DNA from: Acutalibacteraceae bacterium
GTDB taxonomy: Bacteria > Bacillota > Clostridia > Oscillospirales > Acutalibacteraceae
Assembly (NCBI GenBank): GCA_051881695.1
Contig: JBJEQJ010000020.1
Span: forward strand, 185,853 to 249,852
DNA: 64,000 nucleotides
Direction: 5' to 3'
Made by a program: the position numbers and the translations under genes. The notes below the pieces were generated by a model. It worked only from the letters and a program-made list of their open reading frames with translations, did no database searches and was not told the origin of the DNA. Shown piece after piece: positions 43,079 through 62,880 of the stretch (its first letter is position 1; every line of letters begins with the position of its first letter).

Positions 43079-43093
43079 AATGAGGGGTAAAAA

Positions 43094-44201: not shown

Positions 44202-44292
44202 ATAAGTATTAATCGTAATGGCTGTATCATTAAACAGATTGTTTCCCATTACAACTAAAAAGATAAATTATTAGTTAAAAGTGAGTGGCTAT

Positions 44293-44940: not shown

Positions 44941-44995
44941 TATAGTATTATTAGTAAAATTGTTTAAACAAAGAATTATTGTTGGGAGCAATAAA

Positions 44996-46120: not shown

Positions 46121-46125
46121 AACGT

Positions 46126-46902: not shown

Positions 46903-46917
46903 ATTGGAGGAGCTCAG

Positions 46918-47973: not shown

Positions 47974-47984
47974 AGGAGAACAAA

Positions 47985-49485: not shown

Positions 49486-49491
49486 GAATTA

Positions 49492-49671
49492 TTAAGGAAC
49501 CACTGAATAAATTATGCCAAAAAGCTGTTTGCACATCTTGCTTGCATATTTTCCGCCGGTTTGCCCAAAAAATCCTCGTAATGCGTCAGCATTACTGCGG
49601 TTTGTTTGTACAATCTAACGAAAAATCTGACGGCGCAATATGCACAAACGATTTAATCAGTGTTTCCTTAA
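49492..49671 (+). mobile_element. MITE-like non-autonomous element, copy B (180 bp)
   Basis: A direct repeat of 34857-35032, with about 11 substitutions plus a 4 nt indel by eye. The TIRs match 19/21 (TTAAGGAACCACTGAATAAAT versus the reverse complement TTAAGGAAACACTGATTAAAT). Confidence 0.7.
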
Positions 49672-49690
49672 GCTTGGGGAGATAAATGTA

Positions 49691-50719
49691 ATGAAAATCA
49701 GTATTATCACAACAATATATAAAGCTGAGAAGGATTTGCCCCGCTTATTGGAATCTATGATGGCGCAGAAAAGTCCGGAATTAGAATTTTTTTTAATTGA
49801 CAATGGTTCGCCGGACAATTGCGGTGAAGTTTGCAATGAATATGCGAAGAAGGATAGCCGTTTTACAGTATATACATTAAAAGATAATATCGGATATATT
49901 CGGGCAAGAAATCTTGGAATACAAAAATGCTCCGGTGATTATGTCGGTTTTTGTGATTCGGATGATTATTTGGAGAACGGCGGATATGATAGAGCAATCG
50001 AAAAAATATATGAAACTCAGTGTGATTTGTATTTAACTTCATATCGGACAATATTTACAAAACGTGAAGAGATAAATTTGCTTCCGTATGAATGTGGATT
50101 GTATAAAAACCAACAGGTACAGACGGTTATTCGTCCGCAGGCGTTTGGCAGGCTTCCCGGAAAAGGAGTTTTACATGGATTTGCTTGGAAGCAAATATTT
50201 AGAAAAAGTATTATTCTTGATAATAGATTTGAATTTATGCCTGAGCTGCAGCCGTATGAGGATCAGCTGTTTAACACAGATATCATAGGAAAATGTAACA
50301 GTGTTTATGTGGATGACAATGTTATCTATAATTATATTGTTAATGAGCAGTCCATTACTGCAAAGCTGCTTGCTGATTTTGATTCATCTGCCGAATGGGG
50401 CAGGATAGCTCTTTTATATAAAGAGAAATTAAAAAGAGCAAAGAATCAGGCTGAAATTGAAGCTAATTGCAATGAATCATTAGAAAAGATTTATGAATAT
50501 TTACTTAATTTAGCTAAGCAAAACAAAACTGTACGGCAGATTAAATCAACAGTCTGCAGTGATTTAGATAAAACAATAGTAAGTGAAGTATTAAAAGATT
50601 CTTCAAAAAAGCTGTCCGGAAATTGTACTTTTGTCAGGTCTTGTCTTAGACTTAAGCTTTATTCTATAATGATAGCTTGTTTAAAAAGTGCTTTATATTT
50701 ACGGAAGAAAATCAGATAA
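49691..50719 (+). CDS. Glycosyltransferase family 2
   Basis: MKISIITTIYKAEKDLPRLLESMMAQ...IDNGSPD and CDSDD. Start at ATG 49691. The track ORF extension reads into the MITE. Confidence 0.85.
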   Translation: MKISIITTIYKAEKDLPRLLESMMAQKSPELEFFLIDNGSPDNCGEVCNEYAKKDSRFTVYTLKDNIGYIRARNLGIQKCSGDYVGFCDSDDYLENGGYDRAIEKIYETQCDLYLTSYRTIFTKREEINLLPYECGLYKNQQVQTVIRPQAFGRLPGKGVLHGFAWKQIFRKSIILDNRFEFMPELQPYEDQLFNTDIIGKCNSVYVDDNVIYNYIVNEQSITAKLLADFDSSAEWGRIALLYKEKLKRAKNQAEIEANCNESLEKIYEYLLNLAKQNKTVRQIKSTVCSDLDKTIVSEVLKDSSKKLSGNCTFVRSCLRLKLYSIMIACLKSALYLRKKIR

Positions 50720-50829
50720 AATTAATTGCAGCGTGAGAAGATTAAGCTTTCAGTAATGCTGTATTGTAAAAAAGAGACAAAGAGGGCAAAATTTCAAAGT
50801 GACTTTTTCTATTGTCGGAGGTAAAATGA

Positions 50830-51591
50830 ATGAATTTAAAAAACTATATAATATCTCTTAAACAGTATTTAGATAATAGGTCGACCTGTAATGAGCTTAG
50901 AAAATACAAAAACATACATAAAGGAGAGCGTTGCTTCATTATAGGAACAGGTCCCAGCCTTACAACAGAGGATTTGGAAAAATTGAAGGATGAGGTTACA
51001 TTTGGGTCAAACCGAATATTTGAAATTTTCCCTCAAACAGATTGGCGTCCCACTTATTATATGAACCAGGATTATCAGCTGATTTGTAAGTTTGCAGATG
51101 ATATTAAGAATATTGTCGTAAAACGTAAGTTTATGCCGATTGAGGCTAAGCGTTTTTTTGAAGATTCAAATGATATCTCTTATTTTGTTTTGAGATACAA
51201 AGAATATTATCCGAAGGACGCAGACTTCAGTAAGCATCTTGATAAATATATGGGACAAGGCTTTACAGTTACTTACGGTGCAATTCAAATGGCTTACTAT
51301 ATGGGATTTTCCGAGGTTTACCTGTTAGGTATAGATCATAACTACTCCATCAGTTTAAATGAAAAGGGAGTGCCCGTACTTAACGAGGGAACTCAGGATT
51401 ATTTTAAGGGCTCTAAGGCAAGTAATAAAGGACTGAATCTTCCTCGTGTGGTTGAAAGTACAGTAGCCTATATGACGGCAAGAAAGTTTGCAGACAGCCA
51501 CAGCGACTTTGCTGTTTATAATGCTACCCGCGGAGGTAAGCTGGAAGCTTTTTCCCGAGTTGATTTAGACGAAGTGTTAAAAAAGAGTTGA
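50830..51591 (+). CDS. DUF115 / MptE-like (Maf-type) protein, candidate CMP-sugar-acid transferase
   Basis: CFIIGTGPSL, FGSNRI and GFTVTYGAIQMAYYMGFSEVYLLGIDHNY follow the DUF115 pattern. GGAGG RBS. Confidence 0.6.
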   Translation: MNLKNYIISLKQYLDNRSTCNELRKYKNIHKGERCFIIGTGPSLTTEDLEKLKDEVTFGSNRIFEIFPQTDWRPTYYMNQDYQLICKFADDIKNIVVKRKFMPIEAKRFFEDSNDISYFVLRYKEYYPKDADFSKHLDKYMGQGFTVTYGAIQMAYYMGFSEVYLLGIDHNYSISLNEKGVPVLNEGTQDYFKGSKASNKGLNLPRVVESTVAYMTARKFADSHSDFAVYNATRGGKLEAFSRVDLDEVLKKS

Positions 51592-51697
51592 GTCTGAGAA
51601 GTTCTTTGTGTTTTAATACATAATTTGATCAATACAGTAGGGAGTATAAAATGGAAAGAAAACAAATTTAGTATGATAAGTATTGATAAGGGCTTTA

Positions 51698-51726
51698 TTA
51701 ACGAAAAATCTTGATAAAAGTATAAT
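51698..51726 (+). promoter_or_regulatory. Candidate internal promoter
   Basis: TTAACG, a 17 nt spacer, then TATAAT. It sits in the 216 bp gap before the acyltransferase gene. Confidence 0.35.
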
Positions 51727-51807
51727 GACAAGTTGAGGTTTACAGTTCGATTTTAATCAGTGAATGTAATGCTGTGGACTTTATTTAAAGAGTCATTTGG
51801 AGGAAAA

Positions 51808-52872
51808 ATGTTTATTATTACGTTATTATTTGTGTTTATTCTATTCTACAAATTAAAGTTTGCAGGGATTAATGGGTATTTTGATGACTACCTTTCCTTA
51901 GAAAATACAAAAGCGATTAAAGGAATTATGGCTGTTGTTATTGTACTGCATCATCTATATAGACAATTTGCTGATAATGGAGTTTACGAAATTTGGCTAA
52001 AACCTTTTGATTCTCCTATGGGATGGCTTGTGGTTGGTGTGTTCTTTTTTTTCAGTGGATATGGTCTTATGTTGGGGTATTTAAATAAGAAACTATACCT
52101 AAATAGTTTTTTAAAAAAAAGATTGCCCGCAGTGTTAATTCCGTTGCTTACAGCAACTGTTTTATACTTTCCTTTTCAGTTGATTATTAATAAAGAAAGT
52201 TTGAGTTTTACATATTGGTTAGGTATACTTACAGGAAATAATTTTCTTGTGCGTAACTGTTGGTATGTTTATGCGATTGTTGTATTTTATTTTTTGTTTT
52301 ATATAATATTTAAGTTTATTAAAAATACTAAGCTGGCCATTGTTAGTTTTTTATTTTCAATTTGTGCTTATGAAGTAATATGCTTTGTTGTATATAATAA
52401 TTTTGTTTGGAGTTCGTCATCAATAGCTATTGCTTTAGGCGTTATTTGTGCATATTACTATCAAGCAATGACTGCATTTTTAAAGAAATATTATTATTTG
52501 TTATTGCCGGCTTGTGTTGTTGGGTATGTTGGAGGAATGGCTATAAACCCGATTTTTAATAGATTGTTTCACTTTTATCCACCTGAATTTATTTCTGAAA
52601 ACTTATGTGTAATATTTTTTACATTATTTGTGATAATTGTTTTATTAAAGTTTAGATTTAATAATATGATTATAAAATTTTTGGGAAATATATCATACGA
52701 AATATACTTAATGCACGGGCTTTTTATGCTTGTTTTCACCAACTTTATAAAGGTTAATAATCATATTATTTATGTGGTTTTAGTAATCGCTTTTACTATA
52801 TTGTCATCGTGGCTGTTGAATAAGATTAACACTTCGCTTTTCAAAAAATATAATCAAGTATTAATTAAGTGA
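51808..52872 (+). CDS. Acyltransferase-3 family membrane O-acyltransferase
   Basis: IKGIMAVVIVLHH, FFFFSGYGL and KKRLPAVLIP. Start at ATG 51808 with a GGAGG RBS. Confidence 0.8.
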   Translation: MFIITLLFVFILFYKLKFAGINGYFDDYLSLENTKAIKGIMAVVIVLHHLYRQFADNGVYEIWLKPFDSPMGWLVVGVFFFFSGYGLMLGYLNKKLYLNSFLKKRLPAVLIPLLTATVLYFPFQLIINKESLSFTYWLGILTGNNFLVRNCWYVYAIVVFYFLFYIIFKFIKNTKLAIVSFLFSICAYEVICFVVYNNFVWSSSSIAIALGVICAYYYQAMTAFLKKYYYLLLPACVVGYVGGMAINPIFNRLFHFYPPEFISENLCVIFFTLFVIIVLLKFRFNNMIIKFLGNISYEIYLMHGLFMLVFTNFIKVNNHIIYVVLVIAFTILSSWLLNKINTSLFKKYNQVLIK

Positions 52873-52954
52873 TAAAAGTATAAAAGAATGTGAATACTGT
52901 AAAGCCTGAAATAGCATGACATAAAATTATTATTAATAATTTTCGGAGGAAATT

Positions 52955-54040
52955 ATGGAAAGAATTAATCCCAAGATTTCTATTATTGTTCCTATATATA
53001 ATTCAGAACAGTTTTTATCAAGATGTGTGGATAGTATTTTAAAACAAACCGTAACCGATTTTGAATTACTGTTGATTGATGACGGCTCTCCTGATAAAAG
53101 CGGAATAATATGCGATGAATATGCCTCAAAGGATAATAGAATAAGAGTATTGCATAAGGAAAACGGCGGGGTTTCTACTGCAAGAAATATTGGACTTGAT
53201 AGTGCTTTAGGTGAATACATATGTTTTGTAGACAGCGATGACTTTTTAGAGAAAAATTATTTAGAAGTTTTATTGAAAAATTCATTGGAAAATAATGCAG
53301 AAATGATAGTGTGTTCATATTTTTCGCATAGTGCAAGGGAAATATCCTATTGTAATATGAAGACGAGTATTATAGATCATTGTAATGAAAATTGGAAAAC
53401 AGCGGATTTAATTTCAAGCAGTTTTATGTATTATCCATGGAATAAGCTTTTTTTAAGAAAAATCTTGGAAAAGAACAATATAAGATTTGATGAAACAATT
53501 AAGTTTTCGGAAGATTTGATTTTTAATTGTAATTATATAGTATATTGTCAGACAATCGTTACTTTATCTGAAGAATTATATCATTACAATCAAGAAAATT
53601 TACAAAATGCATCGAGTAAGTATTTCCCATTATATTTTAAATATTTGATTGCTCGTTTTATTAGTCAAGAAGAAGCGATAAATAAACTTAAAATAGAAAA
53701 TTGTATTAAAGACAGTAAAATTTTTACTCTTGCACTTTTTAATTTTAAACGCATTTCTGATTATTATTTGTTTAAAAAGATTGATGTAAAAGATGTTGTT
53801 GAAATTTACAATAAATCATATAAATTTTTTTATCCATACTTTGAACGAATGATTACTACCGGAAATAAGCCTGACAAGGTTAATTATGAGCCTGATTTAC
53901 TGAAATGGTATAATAAATACCTTCCGTATTTGAAAGAATGGGATTCAAAAAGATATTATAAAGCAATATATAAGCATAAAGTATTAAGATATGAATTAGG
54001 TGGAATAAAGAGAATTTTGAGGAGAATGATGAAGCCTTAA
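52955..54040 (+). CDS. Glycosyltransferase family 2
   Basis: ISIIVPIYNSEQFLSRCVDSILKQT...IDDGSPDKS and VDSDD. Confidence 0.88.
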   Translation: MERINPKISIIVPIYNSEQFLSRCVDSILKQTVTDFELLLIDDGSPDKSGIICDEYASKDNRIRVLHKENGGVSTARNIGLDSALGEYICFVDSDDFLEKNYLEVLLKNSLENNAEMIVCSYFSHSAREISYCNMKTSIIDHCNENWKTADLISSSFMYYPWNKLFLRKILEKNNIRFDETIKFSEDLIFNCNYIVYCQTIVTLSEELYHYNQENLQNASSKYFPLYFKYLIARFISQEEAINKLKIENCIKDSKIFTLALFNFKRISDYYLFKKIDVKDVVEIYNKSYKFFYPYFERMITTGNKPDKVNYEPDLLKWYNKYLPYLKEWDSKRYYKAIYKHKVLRYELGGIKRILRRMMKP

Positions 54041-54298
54041 TGCGAATTATGTATGGTTTTTATTTGTGAAATAGTTAGATTGTTTTGATAATATGGCAAG
54101 CTAAAATACGATTGAAAGATATAACAAAAATTACTTAAAAGCTGACTGTGAGTATTATCATGATGATTTTAAGCAATATGCAAAAGTTTTGTTTTTATAT
54201 TTGAATTATTTATGATATGAAATATAAAATCGAATTAAGCTTTACAACATAAAAAGCTTAAACGTAAAATTTTAAAATGATATCAGGAGGAATCAGTT

Positions 54299-55063
54299 AT
54301 GAAAATTATTGGCGTTATTCCGGCTCGTTACAAATCTTCTCGTTTTCCGGGAAAACCGTTAGCAGATATTTGCGGCAAGCCAATGATATGGTGGGTTTAT
54401 CAGCAGTGCAAAAAAGTTGAGGATTTTGATGCAGTTTACGTGGCAACAGATGATGATAAAATTTTTGATACCTGTAAATCTCTCGGTATTGAGGTTATTA
54501 TGACTTCTGATAAGCATAAAACAGGAACTGACAGAATAGGAGAGGTTGCAAGGAAGATTCCTGCTGACTTGATTGTAAATATCCAGGGTGATGAACCGTT
54601 GCTTGAGCCTGCAACAATTAAGGCAGCCATTGAGCCTTTTTATACTAATTCTCAGCTTCAGGTTTCTAATCTTATGACCAAGATTAATGACCCGGTAGAT
54701 GTTGTAAACTTTACTGTTCCCAAAGTTATCACAAATAAGGACGGTATCGGTATATATTTAACCCGCGCAACTGCGCCTTATCCTAAAGGCAGTATTGATT
54801 ATGCATACTACAAGCAGGTTTGTGTATATGGCTTTAAGCCTGAAGCACTCGACTTTTATTGTGACTATGGTATGAAATATGGTAAAGCAAAGATAGAGGC
54901 GGTTGAAGATATAGAAATTCTCCGCTTTATTGAAAACGGATATAAAGTTCAGTACATTGAGGTGGATTCTGAAACTGTAGCAGTAGATACACCGAATGAT
55001 TTAGAAAAGGTTCGTGCGATTGTTTCTGAGAAAATAGAGTCGGGTGAAATTAGTAATCAGTAA
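54299..55063 (+). CDS. kdsB: 3-deoxy-manno-octulosonate cytidylyltransferase homologue (CMP-ulosonic-acid synthetase)
   Basis: IGVIPARYKSSRFPGKPLADICGKPMIWWV, MTSDKHKTGTDRIGEV and NIQGDEPLL align motif-for-motif with E. coli KdsB ([42 protein letters not shown]). Confidence 0.8.
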   Translation: MKIIGVIPARYKSSRFPGKPLADICGKPMIWWVYQQCKKVEDFDAVYVATDDDKIFDTCKSLGIEVIMTSDKHKTGTDRIGEVARKIPADLIVNIQGDEPLLEPATIKAAIEPFYTNSQLQVSNLMTKINDPVDVVNFTVPKVITNKDGIGIYLTRATAPYPKGSIDYAYYKQVCVYGFKPEALDFYCDYGMKYGKAKIEAVEDIEILRFIENGYKVQYIEVDSETVAVDTPNDLEKVRAIVSEKIESGEISNQ

Positions 55064-55074
55064 GAGGTACTCAT

Positions 55075-56655
55075 ATGGGCAGCATAAAAGTTCTGGATTG
55101 TACGTTAAGAGACGGCGGTTATTGTAACGAATGGCTCTTTGGCAAAAATAATACGGTTAAAATTATTAACGGTCTTGTTGAAGCCGGTGTTGATATTGTT
55201 GAGTGTGGATTTCTGACTAATCAGGTGGAATATAATGAGGATGTAACTAAGTTTACCACAATGGAGGAAGTTGCTGCTGTGCTTCCGCAAAACCGTGAGG
55301 GTAAGCTGTTTGTTTGCCTTACTAATTACGGCGAATATAATCCGGATGATATTCCTGATAATGATGGATCTTCGCTTGACGGTATTCGTATTGCATTTCA
55401 TAAAAAGGATATGATTCCTGCACTTAAACTTTGTAAAGAAATAAAGAAAAAGGGATACAAGGTCTTTGTTCAGGCAATGGTTTCGTTGAATTACAGTGAT
55501 GAGGAGTTTATTGATCTTATCCGCCGTGTTAATGAATTTATGCCCTATGCGTTTTACATAGTAGACAGCTTTGGTGTAATGAAACGCAAGGACTTAATAC
55601 GGCTGTTTTATATGGTAGAGCATAACCTTTCCGACGGGATTACTATCGGTTATCACTCTCACAATAATCTACAGCTGGCTTATTCAAATGCACAGGCTCT
55701 TGTGGATATTAGAACTAAACGTGATCTGATTTTAGATTCCAGTGTTTTTGGTATGGGACGCGGGGCAGGAAATTTAAATACAGAGCTGTTCGTAGAATAT
55801 TTAAATGATAATATAGGTACGCAATACAAGCTAAAGCCATTGCTGACTATTATTGATGAGATTTTAAATCCGTTTTATCAGCGCAATTATTGGGGGTATT
55901 CTCTGCCGAACTACCTTTCTGCAAAGCATAATGCACATCCCAATTATGCAGGTTATCTTGATGCGAAGAAAACCTTAACTGTAGAGAATATAGACGAGAT
56001 TTTCGCCATGATGGATGATGATAAACGAACAAGCTATGATAAGGAATATATTGAGAATCTATATGTAAAATATATGGCTACAGGCAATGTTCAGGAATCT
56101 CATTTGGCTGAACTTAAAGGAATAATTGCAGGAAAAGAAGTATTGATTATTGCACCGGGGCGCAGTTCTGTTGAAGAAAAGGAAGCAATTATCAGTAGGG
56201 CAAAGCAAAAAGATGTAGTTTCAATCAGCGTTAATTTTGATTATACAGAATTTGATACGGACTTTATTTTCATCAGTAATCTTAGACGGTTTCGGGAGCT
56301 TAATACGAACAAACATAAGAAGTGTATAGTTACCTCAAATATTCCTGCTATTGATATTTATTTGCAAACAAATTATCAAAGCCTTTTAAACGGACAGGAT
56401 TATGTTCGTGATAATGCGGGAATGATGCTGATTAAGTACCTTATAATGCTTGGGGCAAAGAAAGTGCTGGTTGCAGGTGTTGACGGCTACTCGATTGATC
56501 CTACTCAGAACTTTGCGGATCAAAAAATGAATTTCTTTACACAAAAAGCAACCTTCGAGGCTATGAATCTTGGTATGAATGAGGTTCTCAGTGAGTACAG
56601 CAAACAAATTGATATTGAATTTATTACCACGCCAAAATTTGTGCGTGTAATGTGA
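55075..56655 (+). CDS. Fusion protein: HMGL-like (DmpG-type) pyruvate aldolase domain plus a C-terminal DUF115/MptE-like domain
   Basis: The N-domain has VLDCTLRDGGY, the GYHSHNN His-x-His metal site and GMGRGAGNLNTE. The C-domain has VLIIAPGRSS ... ISVNF ... LGAKKVLVAGVDGYS, the same layout as the DUF115 protein at 50830. Confidence 0.65.
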   Translation: MGSIKVLDCTLRDGGYCNEWLFGKNNTVKIINGLVEAGVDIVECGFLTNQVEYNEDVTKFTTMEEVAAVLPQNREGKLFVCLTNYGEYNPDDIPDNDGSSLDGIRIAFHKKDMIPALKLCKEIKKKGYKVFVQAMVSLNYSDEEFIDLIRRVNEFMPYAFYIVDSFGVMKRKDLIRLFYMVEHNLSDGITIGYHSHNNLQLAYSNAQALVDIRTKRDLILDSSVFGMGRGAGNLNTELFVEYLNDNIGTQYKLKPLLTIIDEILNPFYQRNYWGYSLPNYLSAKHNAHPNYAGYLDAKKTLTVENIDEIFAMMDDDKRTSYDKEYIENLYVKYMATGNVQESHLAELKGIIAGKEVLIIAPGRSSVEEKEAIISRAKQKDVVSISVNFDYTEFDTDFIFISNLRRFRELNTNKHKKCIVTSNIPAIDIYLQTNYQSLLNGQDYVRDNAGMMLIKYLIMLGAKKVLVAGVDGYSIDPTQNFADQKMNFFTQKATFEAMNLGMNEVLSEYSKQIDIEFITTPKFVRVM

Positions 56656-56665
56656 GGATAGTAAA

Positions 56666-57694
56666 ATGAAAAAAGTTGTATCATTTGGAGAGATATTATT
56701 GCGTTTGGCTGCACCGGGTTATACTAAGCTGTTTCAGAAAGACAGTTTAGATTCCACTTTTTGCGGAGGCGAAGCAAATGTTGCTGTTTCATTATCAATA
56801 TTTGGTTTGGAGTCCGCCTTTGTGACAAAGCTGCCACATAATGATGTTGGTATTGCAGCGGCAAATTCTTTGAATTATTTTCGGGTTGATACTTCCAAAA
56901 TCATATATGGAGAAGGCAGAATGGGTCTTTATTATCTTGAAAAAGGTGCGTCGCAGCGCCCTTCAAAGGTAATTTATGACCGTGCTTATTCTGCAATTGC
57001 AATGGCAAAACAGAATGAGTTTGACTGGGATTCTATCCTTGAAGGTGCAGATTGGTTCCACTGGACAGGAATTAATCCGGCGTTATCTGACGAGCTTGCG
57101 GAAATTTGTTTACATGCATGTAAAGCTGCAAAGGCGAAGGGGATTACAGTTTCCTGCGATTTAAATTATCGTAAAAATTTGTGGAGCAGTGAAAAGGCAA
57201 AATCAGTTATGACAAAATTGATGCCTTATGTAGATGTATGCATCGCAAATGAAGAAGATGCGGAAAAGGTTCTTGGGATTAAGTCTTTTGGAACAGATGT
57301 TGAAAGCGGTGCATTAAATGTTTCCGGATATCAACAGGTTGCAGAAGAAATTTGTAAAGCATACGGCTGTAAATACGCAGCTGTTACATTAAGAAAAAGT
57401 TATTCTGCCAGCCGTAACGGTTGGCAAGCTATGTTGTATAACGCTTCTGAAGAGAAAGCGTATTTTTCAAAAGAATATGACATCCAGATTGTTGACCGTG
57501 TCGGCGGTGGAGACAGCTTTACTGCCGCGTTAATTTATAGCCTGATTACAGAAAAAGAAAACCGGTATGCTATTGAATTTGCAACAGCAGCAAGCTGCCT
57601 TAAACACACAATTGAGGGTGACTATAATCGCACAACAGTGCAGGACGTAGAAGCACTGCTTAGAAGCGGAGGAAACGGCAGAGTACAGCGTTAA
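56666..57694 (+). CDS. PfkB-family sugar-acid kinase, 2-dehydro-3-deoxygluconokinase-like
   Basis: VVSFGEILLRLAAPG...FCGGEANVAVSL N-terminus and the C-terminal DRVGGGDSFTAALIY anion-hole motif, as in KdgK. Confidence 0.75.
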   Translation: MKKVVSFGEILLRLAAPGYTKLFQKDSLDSTFCGGEANVAVSLSIFGLESAFVTKLPHNDVGIAAANSLNYFRVDTSKIIYGEGRMGLYYLEKGASQRPSKVIYDRAYSAIAMAKQNEFDWDSILEGADWFHWTGINPALSDELAEICLHACKAAKAKGITVSCDLNYRKNLWSSEKAKSVMTKLMPYVDVCIANEEDAEKVLGIKSFGTDVESGALNVSGYQQVAEEICKAYGCKYAAVTLRKSYSASRNGWQAMLYNASEEKAYFSKEYDIQIVDRVGGGDSFTAALIYSLITEKENRYAIEFATAASCLKHTIEGDYNRTTVQDVEALLRSGGNGRVQR

Positions 57695-57773
57695 TTTTTT
57701 ATTGGTTTTTCAGGTAACGCAATTTGCCTGAATATGATTTCAAGATTATATTCGTTTGAAAAGGGGGGAGCTT

Positions 57774-58802
57774 ATGGATATAAAGGCAAATAGTAATAGA
57801 ATAGAGTGGGTTGATACTGCCAAGGGTATCGGTCTTTTGTTAGTTATGCTTGGACATTTACCGACTCCTTATCTTGATACGTGGATTTACACTTTCCATA
57901 TGCCGCTCTTCTTTTTTTTATCCGGCTTTGTTTTTTCCGGACAAAAATATAGTTTTAAAGATTTTTTGATTAAGCGAATTAAATCACTGGTTATTCCTTA
58001 TTTTACGTTAGGAGCAGTTATTTATTTGTTCTATGTTATTGTCAATGCGATAATCGGACCTGAAAACGGATTATATGGCTCTAATATGGATATGCTGTGT
58101 AACTTTTTGGTGCAAAAGCATTTTTGGACAGTTTGGTTTTTAGCCTGCCTGTTTATTGTCGAGATTATTTATTATTGGATTTCTGCTTTGTTTTCCAAAT
58201 TTCGGGGAATTTCAACTGTTGTTTCTCTATGTATATGTGTAATTGGATTATCGTTATATCATTTTGGTTGTAACGGATTGCCGTGGAACATTGATGTTGC
58301 TCTTGTTGCACAGTTCTTCTTTCATGCGGGCTTTAAGTTACGTAAGGCTGATAATTTCAGAAGCTTTCTTTTTAACCTTTCCAAAGCAAAATACATACTT
58401 ACAATACTGGGTTTGCTTGTTGTTAATGTCGGAGCAGGTGCTCTTTGCATCAAGGTGGCGAGGGAATCGTTGGATATGTCTGTCGGACTCTACGGCAATG
58501 AACCCTTAACCTTTATCTCTGCATTCGCAGGAATAATGATGATAATAATGGTTGCAAATAAAATCCACAGCAGATTTTTTTCATATCTTGGCAGAAATAC
58601 AATGATATTGTTTTCTTGGCATTCCAGGATAGTGATTGTACTTTGCGGATATATTTATAAATACTTCGGAATTTTTCAAGGCGGCAGATTGGCAGAAGAG
58701 ATTCTTAACACAGTTGTGACATTAGCGGTTATTCTTGCTGTTTTGATTCCTGTAAATGAATTGATTAAAAAGAGCAGATTTCATGCAATATTCGGAGTGT
58801 AA
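57774..58802 (+). CDS. Acyltransferase-3 family membrane O-acyltransferase
   Basis: RIEWVDTAKGIGLLLVMLGH, MPLFFFLSGFVF and IKRIKSLVIPYF. Start at ATG 57774 with a GGGGGAG RBS. Confidence 0.8.
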   Translation: MDIKANSNRIEWVDTAKGIGLLLVMLGHLPTPYLDTWIYTFHMPLFFFLSGFVFSGQKYSFKDFLIKRIKSLVIPYFTLGAVIYLFYVIVNAIIGPENGLYGSNMDMLCNFLVQKHFWTVWFLACLFIVEIIYYWISALFSKFRGISTVVSLCICVIGLSLYHFGCNGLPWNIDVALVAQFFFHAGFKLRKADNFRSFLFNLSKAKYILTILGLLVVNVGAGALCIKVARESLDMSVGLYGNEPLTFISAFAGIMMIIMVANKIHSRFFSYLGRNTMILFSWHSRIVIVLCGYIYKYFGIFQGGRLAEEILNTVVTLAVILAVLIPVNELIKKSRFHAIFGV

Positions 58803-58943
58803 GTAAATGCAATATGAATGAATTTCAGTTGCAATGCCGTGGAATTAAAAGTATAATATGAGTGGCAAATCAGAAAGGATTAAGCTATAAAAGAGTTAAG
58901 AGCAAAAATACTGATTATATCCGGAAATGAATTTTAAGGGAGT

Positions 58944-59957
58944 ATGGAAATGAACAACGAATCACTTATAAGTGTAATTGTACCTATCTATAAGGTTGAA
59001 AAATACTTAAAAAGATGTGTTGACAGTATATTAAATCAGACATATAAGAATTTGGAGATAATACTTGTTGACGACGGCTCGCCTGATAATTGCCCGAGGA
59101 TGTGTGACGAATACGCTGAGAAGGACGATAGAATAAAGGTTATTCATAAAGAGAACGGAGGCTTATCTGACGCCAGAAATAAGGGGATTGACATTGCAAA
59201 CGGTGAATACCTTGCTTTTATTGATTCTGATGATTTTGTTAGTGAGGATTATATTGAAAAGCTATATGATGCAATTTTAAAAGGTGATGCCGATTTATCT
59301 ATGTGCAGTTTTATTTATGTGGACGAGCAAGGGGCAATCCTTTCCGATAAAAGAAATCACAATCCTATGGTTGACACTGTTTTATGTGCTAAAGAGGTAC
59401 TGGAATATTTTTATAGGGAAAACGGATGGTACTATGTTGTTGCTTGGAATAAGTTGTACAAAAAAGAGTTATTTAATGATGTAAGATTTCCATATGGAAA
59501 GGTGCATGAGGATCAATATGTTTTTCATCATATCATAAGTAAATGCAGCAGAGTTTCTGTGATAAGCAGTCGCCTTGTATACTATTCGCAAAGACAAGAC
59601 AGTATTATGGGTACTTTAAACAGTAAAACAATTCCTGATGATATGGGCTGGCGATATGAACGGTTTATGTTTTTTAGACATAAGGGTTGGGAAGAACTTG
59701 AAAAACTTGCGGCACTGGATTATTTTTATGCAGGGTATAATGTGCTTTCCCGAATTTGGAAGAGCTTTGAAAAGCAGGAGAGATTGTGTGCTAAGGCATT
59801 GCTAAAGCAGATGAAGGAAGTATACCTATGGCTGAAAATGAATAATGAATTAAAAGAATTTTCAAATCTTGGTTTTAATCTGCTCAAACATAATTACAGG
59901 CTTTATTTTTTACTTATAACATTAAAGCGCAGAGTGAAAGGGAAAAGTAAGGGATAA
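58944..59957 (+). CDS. Glycosyltransferase family 2
   Basis: ISVIVPIYKVEKYLKRCVDSILNQTY...VDDGSPDN and IDSDD. Its N-domain is a close paralogue of the GT2 at 52955. Confidence 0.88.
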   Translation: MEMNNESLISVIVPIYKVEKYLKRCVDSILNQTYKNLEIILVDDGSPDNCPRMCDEYAEKDDRIKVIHKENGGLSDARNKGIDIANGEYLAFIDSDDFVSEDYIEKLYDAILKGDADLSMCSFIYVDEQGAILSDKRNHNPMVDTVLCAKEVLEYFYRENGWYYVVAWNKLYKKELFNDVRFPYGKVHEDQYVFHHIISKCSRVSVISSRLVYYSQRQDSIMGTLNSKTIPDDMGWRYERFMFFRHKGWEELEKLAALDYFYAGYNVLSRIWKSFEKQERLCAKALLKQMKEVYLWLKMNNELKEFSNLGFNLLKHNYRLYFLLITLKRRVKGKSKG

Positions 59958-60209
59958 TATAATTTGATAATACAGTGGGTTAGTTTATGCTTTGGTTATT
60001 AATTTGTTAAAAATACTATATTAAGTTGTATAAATAGGTTGGTGAAAAACAGGTTGAAATAACCATGGATTAATTTGTCTTCAATTATTGCTGTTAATCA
60101 ATATGCTGATGATTATGATGTACTGTATGCTGCATAATTTTCAATTACAATAGCTTGTAGTTTACGAGTGTGCGAATACGTCCGGCATAAAAACAGAAAG
60201 GTAGATAAT

Positions 60210-61760
60210 ATGTCAAGAAGATTTAACACGGGTTTAGATAATAAAAGAATTGCAATTAATATGGTTTTTAGTGTTATAGCCTTTGCGTTAAACACTTTTA
60301 TCAGTTTCTTTATTACACCATATATAACAAAAAAATTGGGGTCTGATGCGTATGGATTTGTTAAGTTGGCAAATGACTTTACTAGCTACGCTTCATTGGC
60401 GAGCATTGCTTTAAATTCTATGGCCAGCCGCTTTATTATGCTGGAGAGAGAAAAAAAGAATTTTGACGGAGCCATTAGGTATTATTCTTCGATAACAATT
60501 GCAAATATTGTGCTATCGGCAATCTTAGCGCTTCCTTCTTTAATATGTATTATCTTCCTTGACAAAATCATTAATGTTCCTGTTTCTATGATTACGGAGG
60601 TTAGAATAACATTTGCAATTACTTTTACGAATTTTATGTTATCTTTGGCCTTTTCGACATTTGGCAACTGCTACTATCTTACCAATAGATTGGACAAAAG
60701 CTCTGTTAGGAATATGCAGTCGAATATAATTCGAGTGGGATGTATTTTGGGATTGTTTTTGGCATTTTCTCCGCATATTAGTTTTATAGCAGTAGGTAGC
60801 TTGGCTTCTGTTGTGTTTTTAATTATTTGTAATTTATACTATCACCGAAAATTAACACCGGATTTGGTGTTTGACCGACGCACTTTTGATTGGGCTGCAG
60901 TGAGAGAGGTGCTCGCTGCCGGCGTTTGGAATAGTTTAACCAAATTAAGTCAGATTTTTTCGTCGGGTTTAGATTTATTGGTGACGAATATCTTTATAGG
61001 CTCTACAGAAATGGGCTATTTATCTATAGCAAAAACAATTCCCAGTCTGATTGTTTCTTTAAATTCAACTGTCTCGAATGCTTTCAACCCTAATATGATG
61101 CAATTATATGCGAAGGGGGATATGCAGCAGCTAAAAAAAGCAACTAAGTCGGCAATGAGATTTATGTGTCTGTTTGTGACAGTTCCCACAGCAATACTGA
61201 TAACTATGGGCGAGGAATTTTTCTGCCTGTGGGTTCCTGACCAACCGGCAAAATTAATTAACATACTATCTGTTTTGACGGTTGTTAATTCTTGTATTAC
61301 AGGTCCCATGCAGCCTCTTTATCAGGTTTTTACAATTGCAAACAAGGTTAAACAAAGCTCGATTGTTATGATTATATATGGATTTGCAAGCATTTTGTGC
61401 ACCTATATTTGCCTTCAGACAACAAATTTGGGGTTATATGCGGTTGCGGGTGTCAGCCTGGTTGGTTCTGTGGTTGTAGCTCTTTGTTATCATATTCCAT
61501 TTGCAGCGGTTTATGTTGGTTTACCATGGTATACTTTTTTTCCGGAGATATTAAAAAGTGTTCTTTCGCTTGCAGTTGTCAGCGCAGTGGGAGCTTTGGT
61601 TAATCTATTTTTTGCGCTGGAAACTTCTTGGATAATGTGGTTCACAGGCGCAGGTGTTACTGCTTGCATTGGTCTGTGTTTGAATGCATTATTAATTCTG
61701 AACAAGAAGGAACGTAAGAAGCTACTGAGTGTTTTATACGGAAAGTTGAGGAGAAGATGA
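60210..61760 (+). CDS. Wzx-type oligosaccharide flippase (MOP superfamily)
   Basis: 517 aa with about 14 TM segments and a polysaccharide-biosynthesis-protein-like N-terminus. Start at ATG 60210. Confidence 0.75.
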   Translation: MSRRFNTGLDNKRIAINMVFSVIAFALNTFISFFITPYITKKLGSDAYGFVKLANDFTSYASLASIALNSMASRFIMLEREKKNFDGAIRYYSSITIANIVLSAILALPSLICIIFLDKIINVPVSMITEVRITFAITFTNFMLSLAFSTFGNCYYLTNRLDKSSVRNMQSNIIRVGCILGLFLAFSPHISFIAVGSLASVVFLIICNLYYHRKLTPDLVFDRRTFDWAAVREVLAAGVWNSLTKLSQIFSSGLDLLVTNIFIGSTEMGYLSIAKTIPSLIVSLNSTVSNAFNPNMMQLYAKGDMQQLKKATKSAMRFMCLFVTVPTAILITMGEEFFCLWVPDQPAKLINILSVLTVVNSCITGPMQPLYQVFTIANKVKQSSIVMIIYGFASILCTYICLQTTNLGLYAVAGVSLVGSVVVALCYHIPFAAVYVGLPWYTFFPEILKSVLSLAVVSAVGALVNLFFALETSWIMWFTGAGVTACIGLCLNALLILNKKERKKLLSVLYGKLRRR

Positions 61761-62875
61761 GTATAAAAAATGTTTTGATACGGAATGATTTGGTTTTCGG
61801 CGGTGGGGTAGAAAATGTTATGTATAACCTTGTAAATTATCTGTCGAAACGCGGTTACAGAGTGACTGTTGCAGGGGAGCAATGCAAAAAAAGAGAATTC
61901 TATAAATCCTATCCGCAGGAGGTAAGGTTTGTTAGAGAAAAACTGTTTTATGAAAGACAAACTCGCTATTCGATAAAATGGTTATTTGCAGGGTGCCTAA
62001 ATAGGATATATAAATTATATTATGAGCATATAACGAAAAGACATTATGATGTAGCCATTGCCTTAAAAGAGGGACCTTGTATGAAAGAACTTGTTTGCGC
62101 AAATGCCGAAAAAAAGTTTGCATGGGTTCACGTAGACTATAATTATGCGCATTGGACCAGTTGTTGTTTTAAATCAAATGAAGAAGAGCGACAATATATG
62201 AGACAATACGATCGTGTTGTTTGTGTGTCGCAGTCAGCAGCGGATTCAGTTGTGCATACAATCGGTGATCCGGGGAATTTATGTGTAAAATACAATCCGC
62301 TTGATGTAAAACGGATAAAGGAATTATCTGCAGTTCCCGACGAACAGATAAAAAGAAGCGAAAAGCTGATTTTTGTGTCTGTCGGAAGACTGGCTAAGCC
62401 AAAAAACTATCCATTACTGCTACAGGTTTGCACTGAGTTAGAAAAGAAGTATAACTTCGAGGTTTGGATTATTGGAGACGGGCCTGAAGAGGGAGCGATA
62501 AAAAAAATGATTGAAGAGCTTGGTACATCCAGCGTCAGGCTGTTAGGCAAAAAAGGTAATCCGTATTGTATTATGAGCTGTGCAGATGTGTTTGTGAGCT
62601 CGTCAACTTGTGAGAGTTACGGTCTTGCGATTCAGGAGGCATTGATTCTGGGCCTTCCGGTTGTAGCAGTTAAATGTCCTGCGATTGAGGAGGTTTTTGA
62701 CAAACGGTTTGGTATTTTGTCAGATAATTCTTTCGGGGGATTATACGAGGCTATAGAAAAGATGTTACTTTACGAAGAGCTACGCAGACAATGCAAAAAC
62801 AATATTAAGAATTATTATCGAACTGATAATCTGTATGAGAAACGGTTGCATGAAATTTGCAGATTATGGGAGTGA
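61757..62875 (+). CDS. Glycosyltransferase family 4
   Basis: GGGVENVMYNL N-terminus and the C-terminal SSTCESYGLAIQEALILGLPVVA. It has an ATGA overlap with the flippase gene. Confidence 0.85.
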   Translation: MSIKNVLIRNDLVFGGGVENVMYNLVNYLSKRGYRVTVAGEQCKKREFYKSYPQEVRFVREKLFYERQTRYSIKWLFAGCLNRIYKLYYEHITKRHYDVAIALKEGPCMKELVCANAEKKFAWVHVDYNYAHWTSCCFKSNEEERQYMRQYDRVVCVSQSAADSVVHTIGDPGNLCVKYNPLDVKRIKELSAVPDEQIKRSEKLIFVSVGRLAKPKNYPLLLQVCTELEKKYNFEVWIIGDGPEEGAIKKMIEELGTSSVRLLGKKGNPYCIMSCADVFVSSSTCESYGLAIQEALILGLPVVAVKCPAIEEVFDKRFGILSDNSFGGLYEAIEKMLLYEELRRQCKNNIKNYYRTDNLYEKRLHEICRLWE

Positions 62876-62880
62876 CTTAT

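What the first reader, a model, noticed from the sequence alone, without database searches (positions are those of the whole stretch)
54299..57694. Non-canonical CMP-ulosonic-acid module in a Gram-positive glycan locus: KdsB homologue, HMGL-type pyruvate aldolase and KdgK-type kinase
Seen in sequence: three tightly packed genes with 11 and 10 nt gaps follow a 258 bp AT-rich break.
- The first gene aligns motif-for-motif with KdsB.
- The second carries an intact DmpG/HMGL-type metal site (DCTLRDG, HSH, GAGN).
- The third has the KdgK N-terminus and GGGDSF motif.

Established knowledge: KdsB activates 3-deoxy-2-ulosonic acids with CTP. DmpG-type class II aldolases make or break 4-hydroxy-2-oxo acids from pyruvate plus an aldehyde. 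KdgK phosphorylates 2-keto-3-deoxygluconate. All three families therefore act on the 3-deoxy-2-keto-acid chemotype.

The canonical PEP-dependent route is absent from the window: no KdsA or NeuB synthase, no KdsC phosphatase and no KdsD isomerase.

Inference: the locus builds or salvages a Kdo-like or KDG-like sugar acid by pyruvate aldol condensation. It then activates it as a CMP-sugar for insertion into a capsule or cell-wall polysaccharide. I am not aware of a described pathway with this composition.
Basis: partly seen in the sequence, partly recalled or inferred. Interest (0 to 1): 0.78.

Follow-up and report, generated by a model that had tools for sequence, protein, structure and literature searches.

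The report
Pyruvate-aldolase cassette for a CMP-sugar acid
A gut Clostridia surface-polysaccharide locus carries a widespread, uncharacterised gene cassette (KdsB-like CMP-activating enzyme plus a metal aldolase fused to an MptE/sialyltransferase-like domain, here with a KDG kinase) that probably makes a sialic-acid-like sugar acid from pyruvate instead of PEP.

Summary
The three genes are real and the family assignments hold: KdsB-type cytidylyltransferase (54299-55063), HMGL-like class II aldolase (55075-56655) and a KdgK-type kinase (56666-57694). They are packed with 11 and 10 nt gaps inside a ~30 kb Wzx/Wzy polysaccharide locus of an Acutalibacteraceae MAG.

- **Core unit.** The conserved unit is cytidylyltransferase plus aldolase, not the triad. 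A CTP_transf_3 gene, KdsB-type or PseF/NeuA-type, sits directly upstream of the aldolase wherever upstream sequence exists in 81 loci. Natural aldolase-cytidylyltransferase fusion proteins also exist.
- **Kinase.** It is accessory: present in 33 of 81 loci, with no aldolase residue tracking its presence.
The 526-aa "aldolase" is a fixed two-domain protein with a divergent MptE/DUF115-like C-terminal domain. A stand-alone DUF115 gene (50830-51591) belongs to a family matching GT42 sialyltransferases.
- **Canonical route.** No KdsA, NeuB, KdsC or KdsD gene was found in the window or among recurrent neighbours in related loci.
- **Spread.** The family counts 829 clusters at 50% identity and at least 564 matching stretches in the species-representative genome set.

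I found no paper describing it. The sugar's identity, the kinase's role and the C-terminal domain's activity remain inferred.

The parts
54041..54298 (+). 258-nt AT-rich intergenic region upstream of the cassette, with a promoter-like site (54241-54270) and an AGGAGG ribosome-binding site
   Evidence: Sequence; consensus scan. The scan is a consensus match only and is not proof of a promoter.
54299..55063 (+). KdsB-type CMP-ulosonic-acid synthetase (CTP_transf_3), module-associated subfamily
   Evidence: PF02348 E 1.2e-47, NF009905 294 bits (cut-off 255), TIGR00466 167 bits (cut-off 155). PDB KdsB matches at E 7e-48. The signature KQVCVYGF / EDIEILRF replaces (R/K)HxGxYAY / LEQLR of solved KdsBs. 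It is 70-93% identical in related loci.
55075..55884 (+). N-terminal HMGL-like TIM-barrel domain (residues 1-270) of the 526-aa fusion protein; predicted divalent-metal pyruvate aldolase
   Evidence: PF00682 E 3e-20. Best NCBIfam hits are DmpG-type. PDB 3dxi E 1e-29; DmpG, HsaF and AmnG at E 1e-14 to 1e-10. Foldseek gives the same set. Metal ligands D13, H194 and H196 are kept. DmpG His21 is Tyr16. pLDDT is mostly above 90.
55885..56094 (+). Conserved linker/helical region (residues 271-340; motif WGYS..P.YLSA...HPNYA.YL)
   Evidence: W273, G274, Y275, H288, P289 and Y291 are invariant or nearly so across representatives of 33-54% identity. The region is modelled with low confidence.
56095..56655 (+). 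C-terminal divergent MptE-like/DUF115-like alpha/beta domain (residues 341-526)
   Evidence: No Pfam hit for the window copy. AF2 pLDDT 88. Foldseek top hits are SteA and M. jannaschii MptE HPPK, E 6e-4 to 1e-3. hhalign against stand-alone DUF115 gives 88.7% probability, E 2.6e-6, aligning APGxS with GxGPS and AGxDGY with LLGxD. 8 of 20 homologues give weak PF01973 hits. Family-wide invariant or nearly invariant residues: G362, N387, N402, R405, N422, N447, D470, G471, N498.
56666..57694 (+). KdgK-type PfkB kinase (2-keto-3-deoxygluconate kinase homologue); accessory member of the cassette
   Evidence: PF00294 E 2.3e-31. NF041633 kinase part scores 546 bits. 2afb E 1.6e-110. It lies directly downstream of the aldolase in 33 of 81 loci, at 64-79% identity.
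57709..57732 (+). Weak hairpin after the kinase stop codon (possible attenuating or terminator-like element)
   Evidence: Only 3 G-C pairs and a poor T tract, so weak evidence.
50830..51591 (+). Stand-alone DUF115/MptE-like protein; candidate CMP-ulosonic-acid transferase of the locus
   Evidence: PF01973 56.5 bits (cut-off 34.6). The family profile hits Cst-II GT42 sialyltransferase at E 1.7e-8, Maf 5mu5 at 9.5e-5 and Cst-I at 4.5e-3. DUF115 genes occur near the cassette in 32 of 81 loci.
35506..64000 (+). Enclosing Wzx/Wzy-type polysaccharide locus: initiating transferase, GT2/GT4 enzymes, EpsG-type polymerase, flippase, three O-acyltransferases and 6-deoxyhexose genes. GC is 27-41% against about 43% in the flanks.
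   Evidence: The locus continues about 3.5 kb past the window end with a pyruvyl transferase and an FrhB-like gene.

Best explanation
**What it is.** The region is one copy of a horizontally mobile two-gene core cassette found in polysaccharide loci. The core is a CTP_transf_3 cytidylyltransferase plus a 525-aa fusion of an HMGL-like metal aldolase with an MptE/DUF115-like domain.

**Proposed pathway.**
1. The aldolase domain binds pyruvate at its Asp/His/His metal site. It adds the enolate to a common cellular aldehyde (an aldose or aldose phosphate), giving a 3-deoxy-2-ulosonic acid without PEP.
2. The KdsB-like enzyme makes the reaction effectively irreversible by converting the sugar acid to its CMP ester.
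3. A sialyltransferase-like enzyme puts it on the glycan. Here that is the stand-alone DUF115/GT42-like protein at 50830-51591; elsewhere it is a polysialyltransferase-like protein.

**C-terminal domain.** It is conserved like a precursor-forming enzyme rather than like an acceptor-specific glycosyltransferase. I therefore think it acts on a soluble nucleotide-linked or phosphorylated precursor (kinase, nucleotide-sugar hydrolase or product sensor).

**Kinase.** The KdgK-type kinase is an optional add-on. It links the cassette to the KDG/KDPG pool, either by feeding in a phosphorylated 2-keto-3-deoxy-hexonate or by draining an off-pathway one.

**Shown:** gene structure, family and fold assignments, co-occurrence, fusions, and absence of PEP-dependent genes nearby.

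**Inferred:** the reaction, its direction, the sugar, and the roles of the C-terminal domain and the kinase.
For: - **Coupling of aldolase and cytidylyltransferase.** A CTP_transf_3 gene ends within a few tens of nt of the aldolase start in 75 of 81 loci. The other six are cut by contig ends or were lost to my ORF filter (L023 was confirmed by Pfam). Single polypeptides aldolase-MptE-like-CTP_transf_3 exist: P0207, P0250, P0256, P0264, P0291.
- **Breadth.** The pair occurs in Clostridia, Bacilli, Negativicutes, Treponema, Succinivibrio, Tannerellaceae, Fretibacterium and a Thermoplasmata archaeon. A 27%-identical version occurs on a Leisingera plasmid.
- **Aldolase-type active site.** D13, H194 and H196 align with the DmpG metal ligands and R12 with Arg17. 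DmpG-type models and structures score far better than Claisen-type synthases.
- **CMP-ulosonate context.** The stand-alone DUF115 family matches GT42 sialyltransferases and Maf. Polysialyltransferase/GT52-like genes appear in other loci. Maf enzymes are reported to transfer Kdo and Neu5Ac (bioRxiv 10.1101/2020.06.03.131540, title and abstract).
- **No alternative synthase.** No KdsA, NeuB, SIS or KdsC-type gene was seen in the window or among annotated gene clusters recurring in at least 4 of the 81 neighbourhoods.
- **C-terminal domain is retained and conserved.** The two-domain architecture is kept down to 33% identity. The domain is 43-74% identical across loci with unrelated glycosyltransferase sets, whereas stand-alone DUF115 proteins in the same loci are 26-44% identical.
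- **Kinase is accessory.** It is present in 33 of 81 loci, and no aldolase position discriminates kinase-plus from kinase-minus loci.
Against: - No biochemical datum exists for any member.
- Class II pyruvate aldolases of this fold are known only from catabolism, and the equilibrium of pyruvate aldol additions is unfavourable without coupling.
- The catalytic His of DmpG is replaced by Tyr.
- The aldehyde partner is unknown, and free aldoses are scarce in cytoplasm.
- A KDG kinase works in the opposite sense to the HAD phosphatases seen in distant relatives. No single scheme yet accounts for both.
- The C-terminal domain could simply be the glycosyltransferase.
- KdsA elsewhere in the genome could not be excluded, because only this window and flanks of 10 kb were readable.
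Confidence: 0.55

Rival explanations
1. Ordinary CMP-Kdo supply. The KdsB homologue activates authentic Kdo made by a canonical KdsD/KdsA/KdsC set elsewhere in the genome, or scavenged from dietary pectin RG-II. The aldolase and kinase would be a catabolic or balancing side branch, as NanA is for sialic acid.
For: - The protein passes the TIGR00466 KdsB equivalog cut-off and NCBI names it KdsB.
- Class II pyruvate aldolases and KdgK are classically catabolic.
- The carriers are gut and rumen organisms exposed to plant Kdo and KDG (my own knowledge).
Against: - The aldolase is bound to the cytidylyltransferase in every locus and is even fused to it. A catabolic lyase would not be.
- Half of the loci use a PseF/NeuA-type enzyme instead of KdsB with the same aldolase.
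- Two positions invariant in five solved KdsBs are changed.
- No transporter and no kdsA/C/D gene recurs near the cassette.
- The NF003948 equivalog cut-off is missed (179 against 281 bits).
Confidence: 0.1
2. The HMGL-like domain is a Claisen-type synthase like isopropylmalate, citramalate or homocitrate synthase. It would condense acetyl-CoA with a 2-oxo acid (possibly KDG or KDPG supplied by the kinase), making a branched hydroxy-acid that is then CMP-activated or attached as a substituent.
For: - The HMGL-like superfamily includes these synthases, and they give weaker but significant hits (E 7e-13 to 1e-10; Foldseek).
- All family members bind a 2-oxo acid at the same metal site.
- KDG and KDPG are 2-oxo acids, which would explain a KDG kinase.
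Against: - DmpG-type aldolase models and structures score clearly higher (90 against 48 bits; PDB E 1e-14 against 8e-5).
- The LeuA-type post-barrel subdomains and regulatory domain are absent.
- CTP_transf_3 enzymes are only known to activate the anomeric hydroxyl of cyclic 2-ulosonic acids (established knowledge).
Confidence: 0.1
3. The core pathway is as in the best explanation, but the C-terminal MptE/DUF115-like domain is itself the CMP-ulosonate glycosyltransferase. The 526-aa protein would then both make and transfer the sugar.
For: - hhalign relates the domain to stand-alone DUF115 proteins, with the GxGPS-like and GxDxY motifs aligned.
- That DUF115 family matches GT42 sialyltransferases.
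- About 29 of 81 loci show no other sialyltransferase-like gene within the 7 kb examined.
Against: - The domain is far more conserved than glycosyltransferases of variable loci, and more than the co-resident DUF115 proteins.
- Its nearest folds are MptE pyrophosphokinase and SteA rather than Cst-II.
- Its profile finds no sialyltransferase in PDB.
- It is retained in fusions with HAD phosphatase, which points to precursor metabolism.
Confidence: 0.2
4. The three genes are neighbours by accident of locus shuffling and do not act in one pathway.
For: - Polysaccharide loci are mosaics.
- The kinase is absent from all other members of the window's own aldolase clade.
Against: - The 10-11 nt spacing points to translational coupling.
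- The cytidylyltransferase-aldolase order is conserved across phyla, and fusions exist.
- The kinase recurs at the same position in 33 loci.
Confidence: 0.03

Closest known systems
Kdo pathway of Gram-negative bacteria (KdsD, KdsA, KdsC, KdsB)
   Same: It ends with a KdsB-family CTP-dependent activation of a 3-deoxy-2-ulosonic acid. HAD phosphatases are fused to or next to distant relatives of the aldolase, echoing KdsC.
   Different: There is no PEP-dependent KdsA (DAHP-synthase fold), no KdsD and no KdsC here. An HMGL-like metal aldolase takes the synthase position. The KdsB homologue carries Q and I where solved KdsBs have invariant H and Q. The carriers are mostly monoderm bacteria without LPS.
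Bacterial sialic/nonulosonic acid systems (NeuC/NeuB/NeuA, PseI/PseF, LegI/LegF) with GT42, GT52/GT38 or Maf transferases
   Same: The same logic applies: synthase, then CMP-synthetase, then a sialyltransferase-like enzyme, inside a surface-glycan locus. PseF/NeuA-type cytidylyltransferases and GT42/DUF115 or polysialyltransferase-like genes accompany the aldolase in many loci.
   Different: The synthase is not a NeuB-family PEP condensing enzyme. No hexosamine-tailoring genes are conserved with the cassette.
DmpG/BphI/HsaF 4-hydroxy-2-oxovalerate aldolases (class II, HMGL-like)
   Same: The TIM barrel, the Asp/His/His metal site, the Arg next to the Asp, and the best sequence and fold matches are shared.
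   Different: - The catalytic His21 is Tyr.
- Curated cut-offs are missed (85 against 286 bits).
- There is no partner acylating dehydrogenase.
- The C-terminal communication domain is replaced by an MptE-like domain.
- The setting is biosynthetic rather than aromatic catabolism.
Semi-phosphorylative Entner-Doudoroff module (KD(P)G aldolase plus KDG kinase) of Sulfolobus, Thermoproteus and Thermotoga-type hexuronate catabolism
   Same: A pyruvate aldolase gene lies next to a KDG kinase gene. The kinase is a close homologue of T. maritima KdgK.
   Different: The aldolase there is a class I Schiff-base enzyme (DHDPS/NAL or Eda fold) and the pathway is catabolic. Here the aldolase is metal-dependent, tied to a CMP-synthetase, and sits in a glycan locus.
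One-pot chemoenzymatic sialoside synthesis (sialic acid aldolase plus CMP-sialic acid synthetase plus sialyltransferase)
   Same: A reversible pyruvate aldolase is pulled in the synthetic direction by CTP-dependent activation and transfer. This is the thermodynamic logic proposed here.
   Different: That is a laboratory arrangement using a class I catabolic aldolase. No natural pathway of this design is described, to my knowledge.

Membership tests
KdsB (CMP-Kdo synthetase, TIGR00466 / PF02348) | CTP_transf_3 fold with the PARxxSxRxPGKPL, QGDEP and VDTPxDL motifs | tested here: met
   PF02348 E 1.2e-47. The motifs are visible in alignments to 3oam, 1gq9, 3duv, 1vh3 and 4fcu.
KdsB (CMP-Kdo synthetase, TIGR00466 / PF02348) | Score above curated equivalog cut-offs | tested here: inconclusive
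   TIGR00466 167.2 bits against 155.2 (passes). NF003948 178.6 against 281 (fails). Subfamily NF009905 293.7 against 255 (passes).
KdsB (CMP-Kdo synthetase, TIGR00466 / PF02348) | Residues invariant in solved KdsBs in the (R/K)HxGxYAY and LEQLR segments. I recall these from memory as part of the Kdo pocket. | tested here: not met
   The window has KQVCVYGF and EDIEILRF. The same holds in 33 module-associated KdsB-type proteins, including the Leisingera one.
KdsB (CMP-Kdo synthetase, TIGR00466 / PF02348) | Kdo as substrate, with KdsA/KdsC/KdsD in the genome | not testable with these tools
   These genes are absent from the window and its flanks. The rest of the 354.5-kb contig and genome could not be read.
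DmpG/BphI-type 4-hydroxy-2-oxovalerate aldolase | HMGL-like barrel with Asp and two His metal ligands and the adjacent Arg | tested here: met
   R12, D13, H194 and H196 align with DmpG R17, D18, H200 and H202. They are invariant or nearly so across the family.
DmpG/BphI-type 4-hydroxy-2-oxovalerate aldolase | Catalytic His (DmpG His21 / BphI His20) | tested here: not met
   The aligned residue is Tyr16 (RDGGY). It is invariant in 79 of 80 close homologues and is also Tyr in 3dxi.
DmpG/BphI-type 4-hydroxy-2-oxovalerate aldolase | Curated equivalog score, and an adjacent acylating aldehyde dehydrogenase (DmpF) | tested here: not met
   TIGR03217 85.4 bits against cut-off 286. No dehydrogenase gene is in the locus.
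KdgK (2-dehydro-3-deoxygluconokinase, PfkB) | PfkB fold with the GxGD anion-hole/catalytic motif, and close similarity to a KDG kinase | tested here: met
   PF00294 E 2.3e-31. VGGGDSF is present. 2afb (T. maritima KdgK) E 1.6e-110 over the full length. NF041633 kinase part scores 546 bits.
KdgK (2-dehydro-3-deoxygluconokinase, PfkB) | Curated equivalog cut-off, and a hexuronate/ED catabolic neighbourhood (eda, uxa, kdu) | tested here: not met
   NF041332 228.6 against 440; NF040938 117 against 400; NF052444 44.6 against 400. The neighbours are glycan genes.
MptE-like / DUF115 (PF01973), related to GT42 sialyltransferases and Maf: C-terminal domain of the 526-aa protein | Pfam gathering score | tested here: not met
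   No hit for the window copy even at E 10. 8 of 20 homologues hit weakly, best E 0.0064.
MptE-like / DUF115 (PF01973), related to GT42 sialyltransferases and Maf: C-terminal domain of the 526-aa protein | Fold and profile-level relatedness, with GxGPS-like and GxD motifs | tested here: inconclusive
   hhalign 88.7%, E 2.6e-6. Foldseek top hits are SteA and MptE HPPK, E about 1e-3, TM about 0.45. The profile finds nothing in PDB by sequence.
MptE-like / DUF115 (PF01973): stand-alone gene 50830-51591 | Pfam gathering score and relatedness to CMP-sugar transferases | tested here: met
   PF01973 56.5 bits against 34.6. The family profile hits Cst-II at E 1.7e-8 and Maf 5mu5 at 9.5e-5.
PEP-dependent ulosonic acid synthase pathways (KdsA, NeuB/PseI/LegI) | A DAHP-synthase-fold or NeuB-fold synthase gene in the locus | tested here: not met
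   None was found in the window, in L001-L005, or among annotated gene clusters recurring in at least 4 of the 81 neighbourhoods.

The most novel reading that the evidence does not exclude
A mobile cassette present in at least 564 matching stretches of the species-representative genome set encodes a third, PEP-independent route to CMP-activated 3-deoxy-2-ulosonic acids. The carriers are gut and rumen bacteria and at least one archaeon. The route would be built on a class II metal aldolase permanently fused to an MptE/GT42-like domain. The product would be a so far unrecognised sialic-acid-like surface sugar of commensal Clostridia, possibly a hexulosonic (KDG-type) or Kdo-epimer acid.
Probability: 0.4. 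Interest if true: 0.82.

Novelty: new variant of a known kind. Interest (0 to 1): 0.7.

Why it matters
To my knowledge, every described de novo route to Kdo, sialic, pseudaminic, legionaminic acids and Kdn uses a PEP-dependent synthase. A pyruvate-dependent metal aldolase in that position would be a new biosynthetic solution.

It would also point to an unrecognised acidic sugar on the surface of many gut and rumen commensals. Such sugars usually dominate immune recognition, phage adsorption and lectin binding.

The cassette is small (two or three genes), very conserved and easy to express, so the question is directly testable. The enzymes could also serve chemoenzymatic synthesis of ulosonic acid glycosides.

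Finally, it would give a function to 829 clusters at 50% identity (about 7,900 hits among clusters at 90% identity). Most carry no source name; those that do are called 'aldolase catalytic domain-containing protein' or '4-hydroxy 2-oxovalerate aldolase'. It would likewise explain the orphan structure 3dxi.

Tried and rejected
- **C-terminal domain against the neighbouring DUF115 protein.** Direct BLASTP gave nothing. Only profile and fold comparisons showed the relation.
- **Pfam on the C-terminal domain alone.** No hit.
- **C-terminal domain profile against PDB sequences.** Nothing meaningful.
- **Literature.** Ten full-text searches covered HMGL-like with cytidylyltransferase or capsule, KdsB with aldolase, BVU_2661, CMP-Kdo in Gram-positives, ulosonic/DUF115, hexulosonic acids/CMP-KDG, teichulosonic acid, MptE-like, KdsB in Clostridia, and the MptE structure. 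None returned a paper on this module. The only hexulosonic acid glycan found was E. coli K3, which is 4-deoxy rather than 3-deoxy.
- **Aldolase residues tracking the kinase.** I looked for positions that discriminate kinase-plus from kinase-minus loci, to tie the kinase to a different sugar. There were none.
- **DmpG hydrophobic pocket.** I considered arguing for a polar aldehyde pocket from replacements of DmpG Leu88 and Leu90. The aligned positions 81 and 83 vary (A/C/V and I/M/V/T), so I dropped that argument. Only the inserted Asn84 and Tyr85 are conserved.
- **HpcH/HpaI-like gene at 36165-36998.** I tested whether it matches the HpcH domain fused to an aldolase homologue (P0160). Identity is only 25%, so no link is claimed.
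- **Plasmid collection.** It yielded only distant relatives. The Priestia and Paraburkholderia contexts were uninformative.
- **Whole-genome search for kdsA/kdsC/kdsD.** Not possible with the tools.

Full report
**1. What is there**

- The intergenic gaps are 11 and 10 nt, each with a GAGG-type ribosome-binding site.
- Upstream lies a 258-nt AT-rich spacer with AGGAGG before the start codon and a promoter-like match at 54241-54270.
- A weak hairpin follows the kinase stop codon.

The exact proteins are on record in NCBI from an Acutalibacteraceae MAG (Oscillospirales, Clostridia), on a 354,509-bp contig. They are annotated as 3-deoxy-manno-octulosonate cytidylyltransferase, aldolase catalytic domain-containing protein and PfkB family carbohydrate kinase.

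**2. Setting**

From 35.5 kb to beyond the window end runs one + strand polysaccharide locus. It contains:
- an initiating Bac_transf enzyme;
- GT2 and GT4 transferases;
- an EpsG-type polymerase and a flippase;
- three Acyl_transf_3 O-acyltransferases;
- a four-gene 6-deoxyhexose set;
- DUF1919;
- a stand-alone MptE-like/DUF115 gene at 50830-51591.

A pyruvyl transferase and an FrhB-like gene follow just past the window. GC falls from about 43% in the flanks to 27-41% in the locus. The first 35 kb are housekeeping genes. Nothing in the window, or in the 5 kb after it, belongs to the KdsA, NeuB, KdsC or KdsD families.

**3. Family assignments**

*Gene 1* is a KdsB-family cytidylyltransferase.
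- PF02348 E 1.2e-47. NF009905 scores 294 bits against a cut-off of 255, and TIGR00466 scores 167 against 155. The stricter NF003948 scores 179 against 281.
- Solved KdsBs match at E 7e-48 to 3e-29.
- In alignments to five of them, two segments invariant in the solved enzymes, (R/K)HxGxYAY and LEQLR, read KQVCVYGF and EDIEILRF here.
- This signature is shared by all 33 module-associated KdsB-type proteins I collected, including one from an alphaproteobacterial plasmid.
- From memory, that His and Gln lie in the Kdo pocket. I could not verify this with the tools.

*Gene 3* is a close homologue of Thermotoga maritima KDG kinase (2afb, E 1.6e-110 over the full length). It also matches the kinase half of clostridial Eda-KdgK fusion proteins (NF041633, 546 bits).

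*Gene 2* has an N-terminal HMGL-like barrel.
- PF00682 E 3e-20.
- Best hits are DmpG-type aldolases and the orphan structure 3dxi, described as the N-terminal domain of Bacteroides vulgatus BVU_2661.
- R12, D13, H194 and H196 align with DmpG R17, D18, H200 and H202.
- DmpG's catalytic His21 is Tyr16 here and in 3dxi.

**4. The second domain**

Residues about 341-526 of gene 2 have no Pfam hit, but they fold confidently (pLDDT 88). Three independent weak-to-moderate lines place the domain in the MptE/DUF115 superfamily:
- The best Foldseek matches are SteA and the M. jannaschii MptE pyrophosphokinase, E 6e-4 to 1e-3.
- A profile-profile comparison with the stand-alone DUF115 family gives 88.7% probability, E 2.6e-6. 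It aligns APGxS with GxGPS and AGxDGY with LLGxD.
- 8 of 20 homologues give sub-threshold PF01973 hits.

The stand-alone DUF115 family, including the window gene 50830-51591, matches Campylobacter Cst-II (GT42) at E 1.7e-8 and Maf at 9.5e-5. That gene is therefore a good candidate for a CMP-ulosonic-acid transferase.

**5. Comparative genomics**

The 526-aa architecture is very common.
- About 7,900 hits among clusters at 90% identity.
- 829 clusters at 50% identity with E up to 1e-30, keeping both domains down to 33% identity.
- Carriers span Clostridia, Bacilli, Erysipelotrichia, Negativicutes, Treponema, Succinivibrio, Tannerellaceae, Fretibacterium and a Thermoplasmata archaeon.

I clustered all ORFs around the aldolase in 82 non-redundant loci, 81 of them carrying the aldolase ORF cluster.
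- A CTP_transf_3 gene lies immediately upstream in 75.
- The other six are cut by a contig end or were lost to my overlap filter. L023 was confirmed by Pfam.
- The cytidylyltransferase is KdsB-type in about half and PseF/NeuA-type in the rest. The two types are mixed within aldolase clades.
- The kinase follows the aldolase in 33 loci, mostly in one clade. The window is the only kinase-bearing member of its own clade.
- No aldolase position separates kinase-plus from kinase-minus loci, and all active-site-like positions are invariant.
- DUF115 genes occur in 32 loci and polysialyltransferase/GT52-like genes in others.
- No other enzyme family recurs. In particular, no KdsA, NeuB, SIS or KdsC-type gene was seen.

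**6. Fusions**

Among the representatives:
- Five proteins are aldolase-MptE-like-CTP_transf_3 fusions.
- Two are aldolase-MptE-like-HAD phosphatase fusions.
- One has an N-terminal HpcH/HpaI domain.

On a Leisingera caerulea plasmid, a 27%-identical two-domain aldolase is followed by a KdsB with the same signature and by a HAD hydrolase, inside an ABC-transporter capsule locus.

The cytidylyltransferase fusions establish the functional link. The HAD fusions suggest that, at least in those lineages, a phosphorylated intermediate is dephosphorylated before activation.

**7. Mechanism proposed**

The only universally conserved enzymes are the aldolase fusion and the cytidylyltransferase. The sugar must therefore be made from common metabolites. 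The aldolase-type active site argues for pyruvate plus an aldehyde, giving a 4-hydroxy-2-oxo acid, that is, a 3-deoxy-2-ulosonic acid.

CTP_transf_3 enzymes act on the anomeric hydroxyl of the cyclic form. The acid therefore needs at least six carbons (established chemistry). CMP formation with pyrophosphate loss would pull an unfavourable aldol equilibrium. This logic is used in one-pot chemoenzymatic sialoside synthesis.

The C-terminal domain is 43-74% identical across loci whose glycosyltransferases are unrelated. The co-resident stand-alone DUF115 proteins are only 26-44% identical. That pattern fits an enzyme acting on a soluble precursor better than an acceptor-specific transferase. Candidate activities:
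- a kinase or pyrophosphokinase, as in MptE;
- a nucleotide-sugar hydrolase that releases the aldose;
- a CMP-sugar sensor.

The kinase almost certainly acts on KDG or a very close analogue. Its presence hints that the sugar is of the hexulosonic type, or that KDPG is on or next to the pathway. A kinase and the HAD phosphatases of distant relatives point in opposite directions, and I cannot reconcile them in one scheme. This is the main unexplained point.

**8. Rivals**

- *Canonical CMP-Kdo with an unrelated aldolase.* This is contradicted by the obligate pairing, the fusions and the interchangeability with PseF/NeuA-type enzymes.
- *A Claisen-type synthase reading of the HMGL domain.* This is less likely from scores but is not excluded.
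- *The C-terminal domain as the transferase.* This is a live sub-hypothesis.
- *Chance neighbourhood.* This is excluded for the core pair.

**9. Novelty**

Ten full-text searches found nothing on this cassette. Where source databases name it at all, they use generic names. The only solved structure is an unpublished structural-genomics entry.

I rate it a new variant of a known kind: CMP-ulosonic-acid biosynthesis and transfer, but with a different synthase and an unexplained extra domain.

The unit is a pair rather than a triad. The aldolase is a two-domain protein. The cytidylyltransferase is probably not Kdo-specific.

Noticed in passing
window 43094-43684 and 43656-44201: A GT4 glycosyltransferase is split into two overlapping ORFs in different frames: a Glyco_transf_4 N-terminal half and a Glycos_transf_1 C-terminal half. 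The first ends at TAA 43682-43684. This could be a frameshifted pseudogene, a phase-variable gene or an assembly error.
   Followed up: partly
window 36165-36998 and 38033-38926: Near the start of the locus lie an HpcH/HpaI-like protein (weak hit, E 1.8e-11) and a D-2-hydroxyacid dehydrogenase. These may form a second pyruvate or 2-oxo-acid-related tailoring pair. One distant aldolase homologue (P0160) carries an N-terminal HpcH/HpaI domain, but the window protein is only 25% identical to it.
   Followed up: partly
window 37042-38016, 51760-52872, 57756-58802: Three separate Acyl_transf_3 O-acyltransferase genes sit in one locus. The last lies directly after the kinase. The glycan is probably heavily O-acylated.
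   Followed up: no
window 35000-64000: GC content drops to 27-41% in the polysaccharide locus, against about 43% in the housekeeping flank. GC skew is uniformly positive. A Logan assembly of the same organism breaks its contig at the locus border. Both fit a horizontally exchanged, strain-variable locus.
   Followed up: no
L003/L004/L005 1-2500, L025 771-2333, L083 7193-8731: Some loci carry two paralogous aldolase fusions (30-46% identical to each other) and two cytidylyltransferases. In L003 only the divergent paralogue is followed by the kinase. This may mean two different ulosonic acids in one glycan.
   Followed up: partly
L086 (Desulfobaculum bizertense plasmid NZ_CP090010) 3846-8014: A single-domain homologue of the aldolase (37% identity, no C-terminal domain) sits next to RfbH and a split transketolase. 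This context suggests branched-chain or dideoxy nucleotide-sugar chemistry rather than ulosonic acids.
   Followed up: no
L001/L002 15388-17868: Next to a related polysaccharide locus lie a gene with only a faint nucleotide-cyclase Pfam hit and a PycTM-domain gene. Together they resemble a Pycsar-type anti-phage system.
   Followed up: no
window 29993-32365 (- strand): A 790-aa protein combines a sortase domain with Big_2 immunoglobulin-like repeats, an unusual pairing. It lies just upstream of the glycan locus.
   Followed up: no
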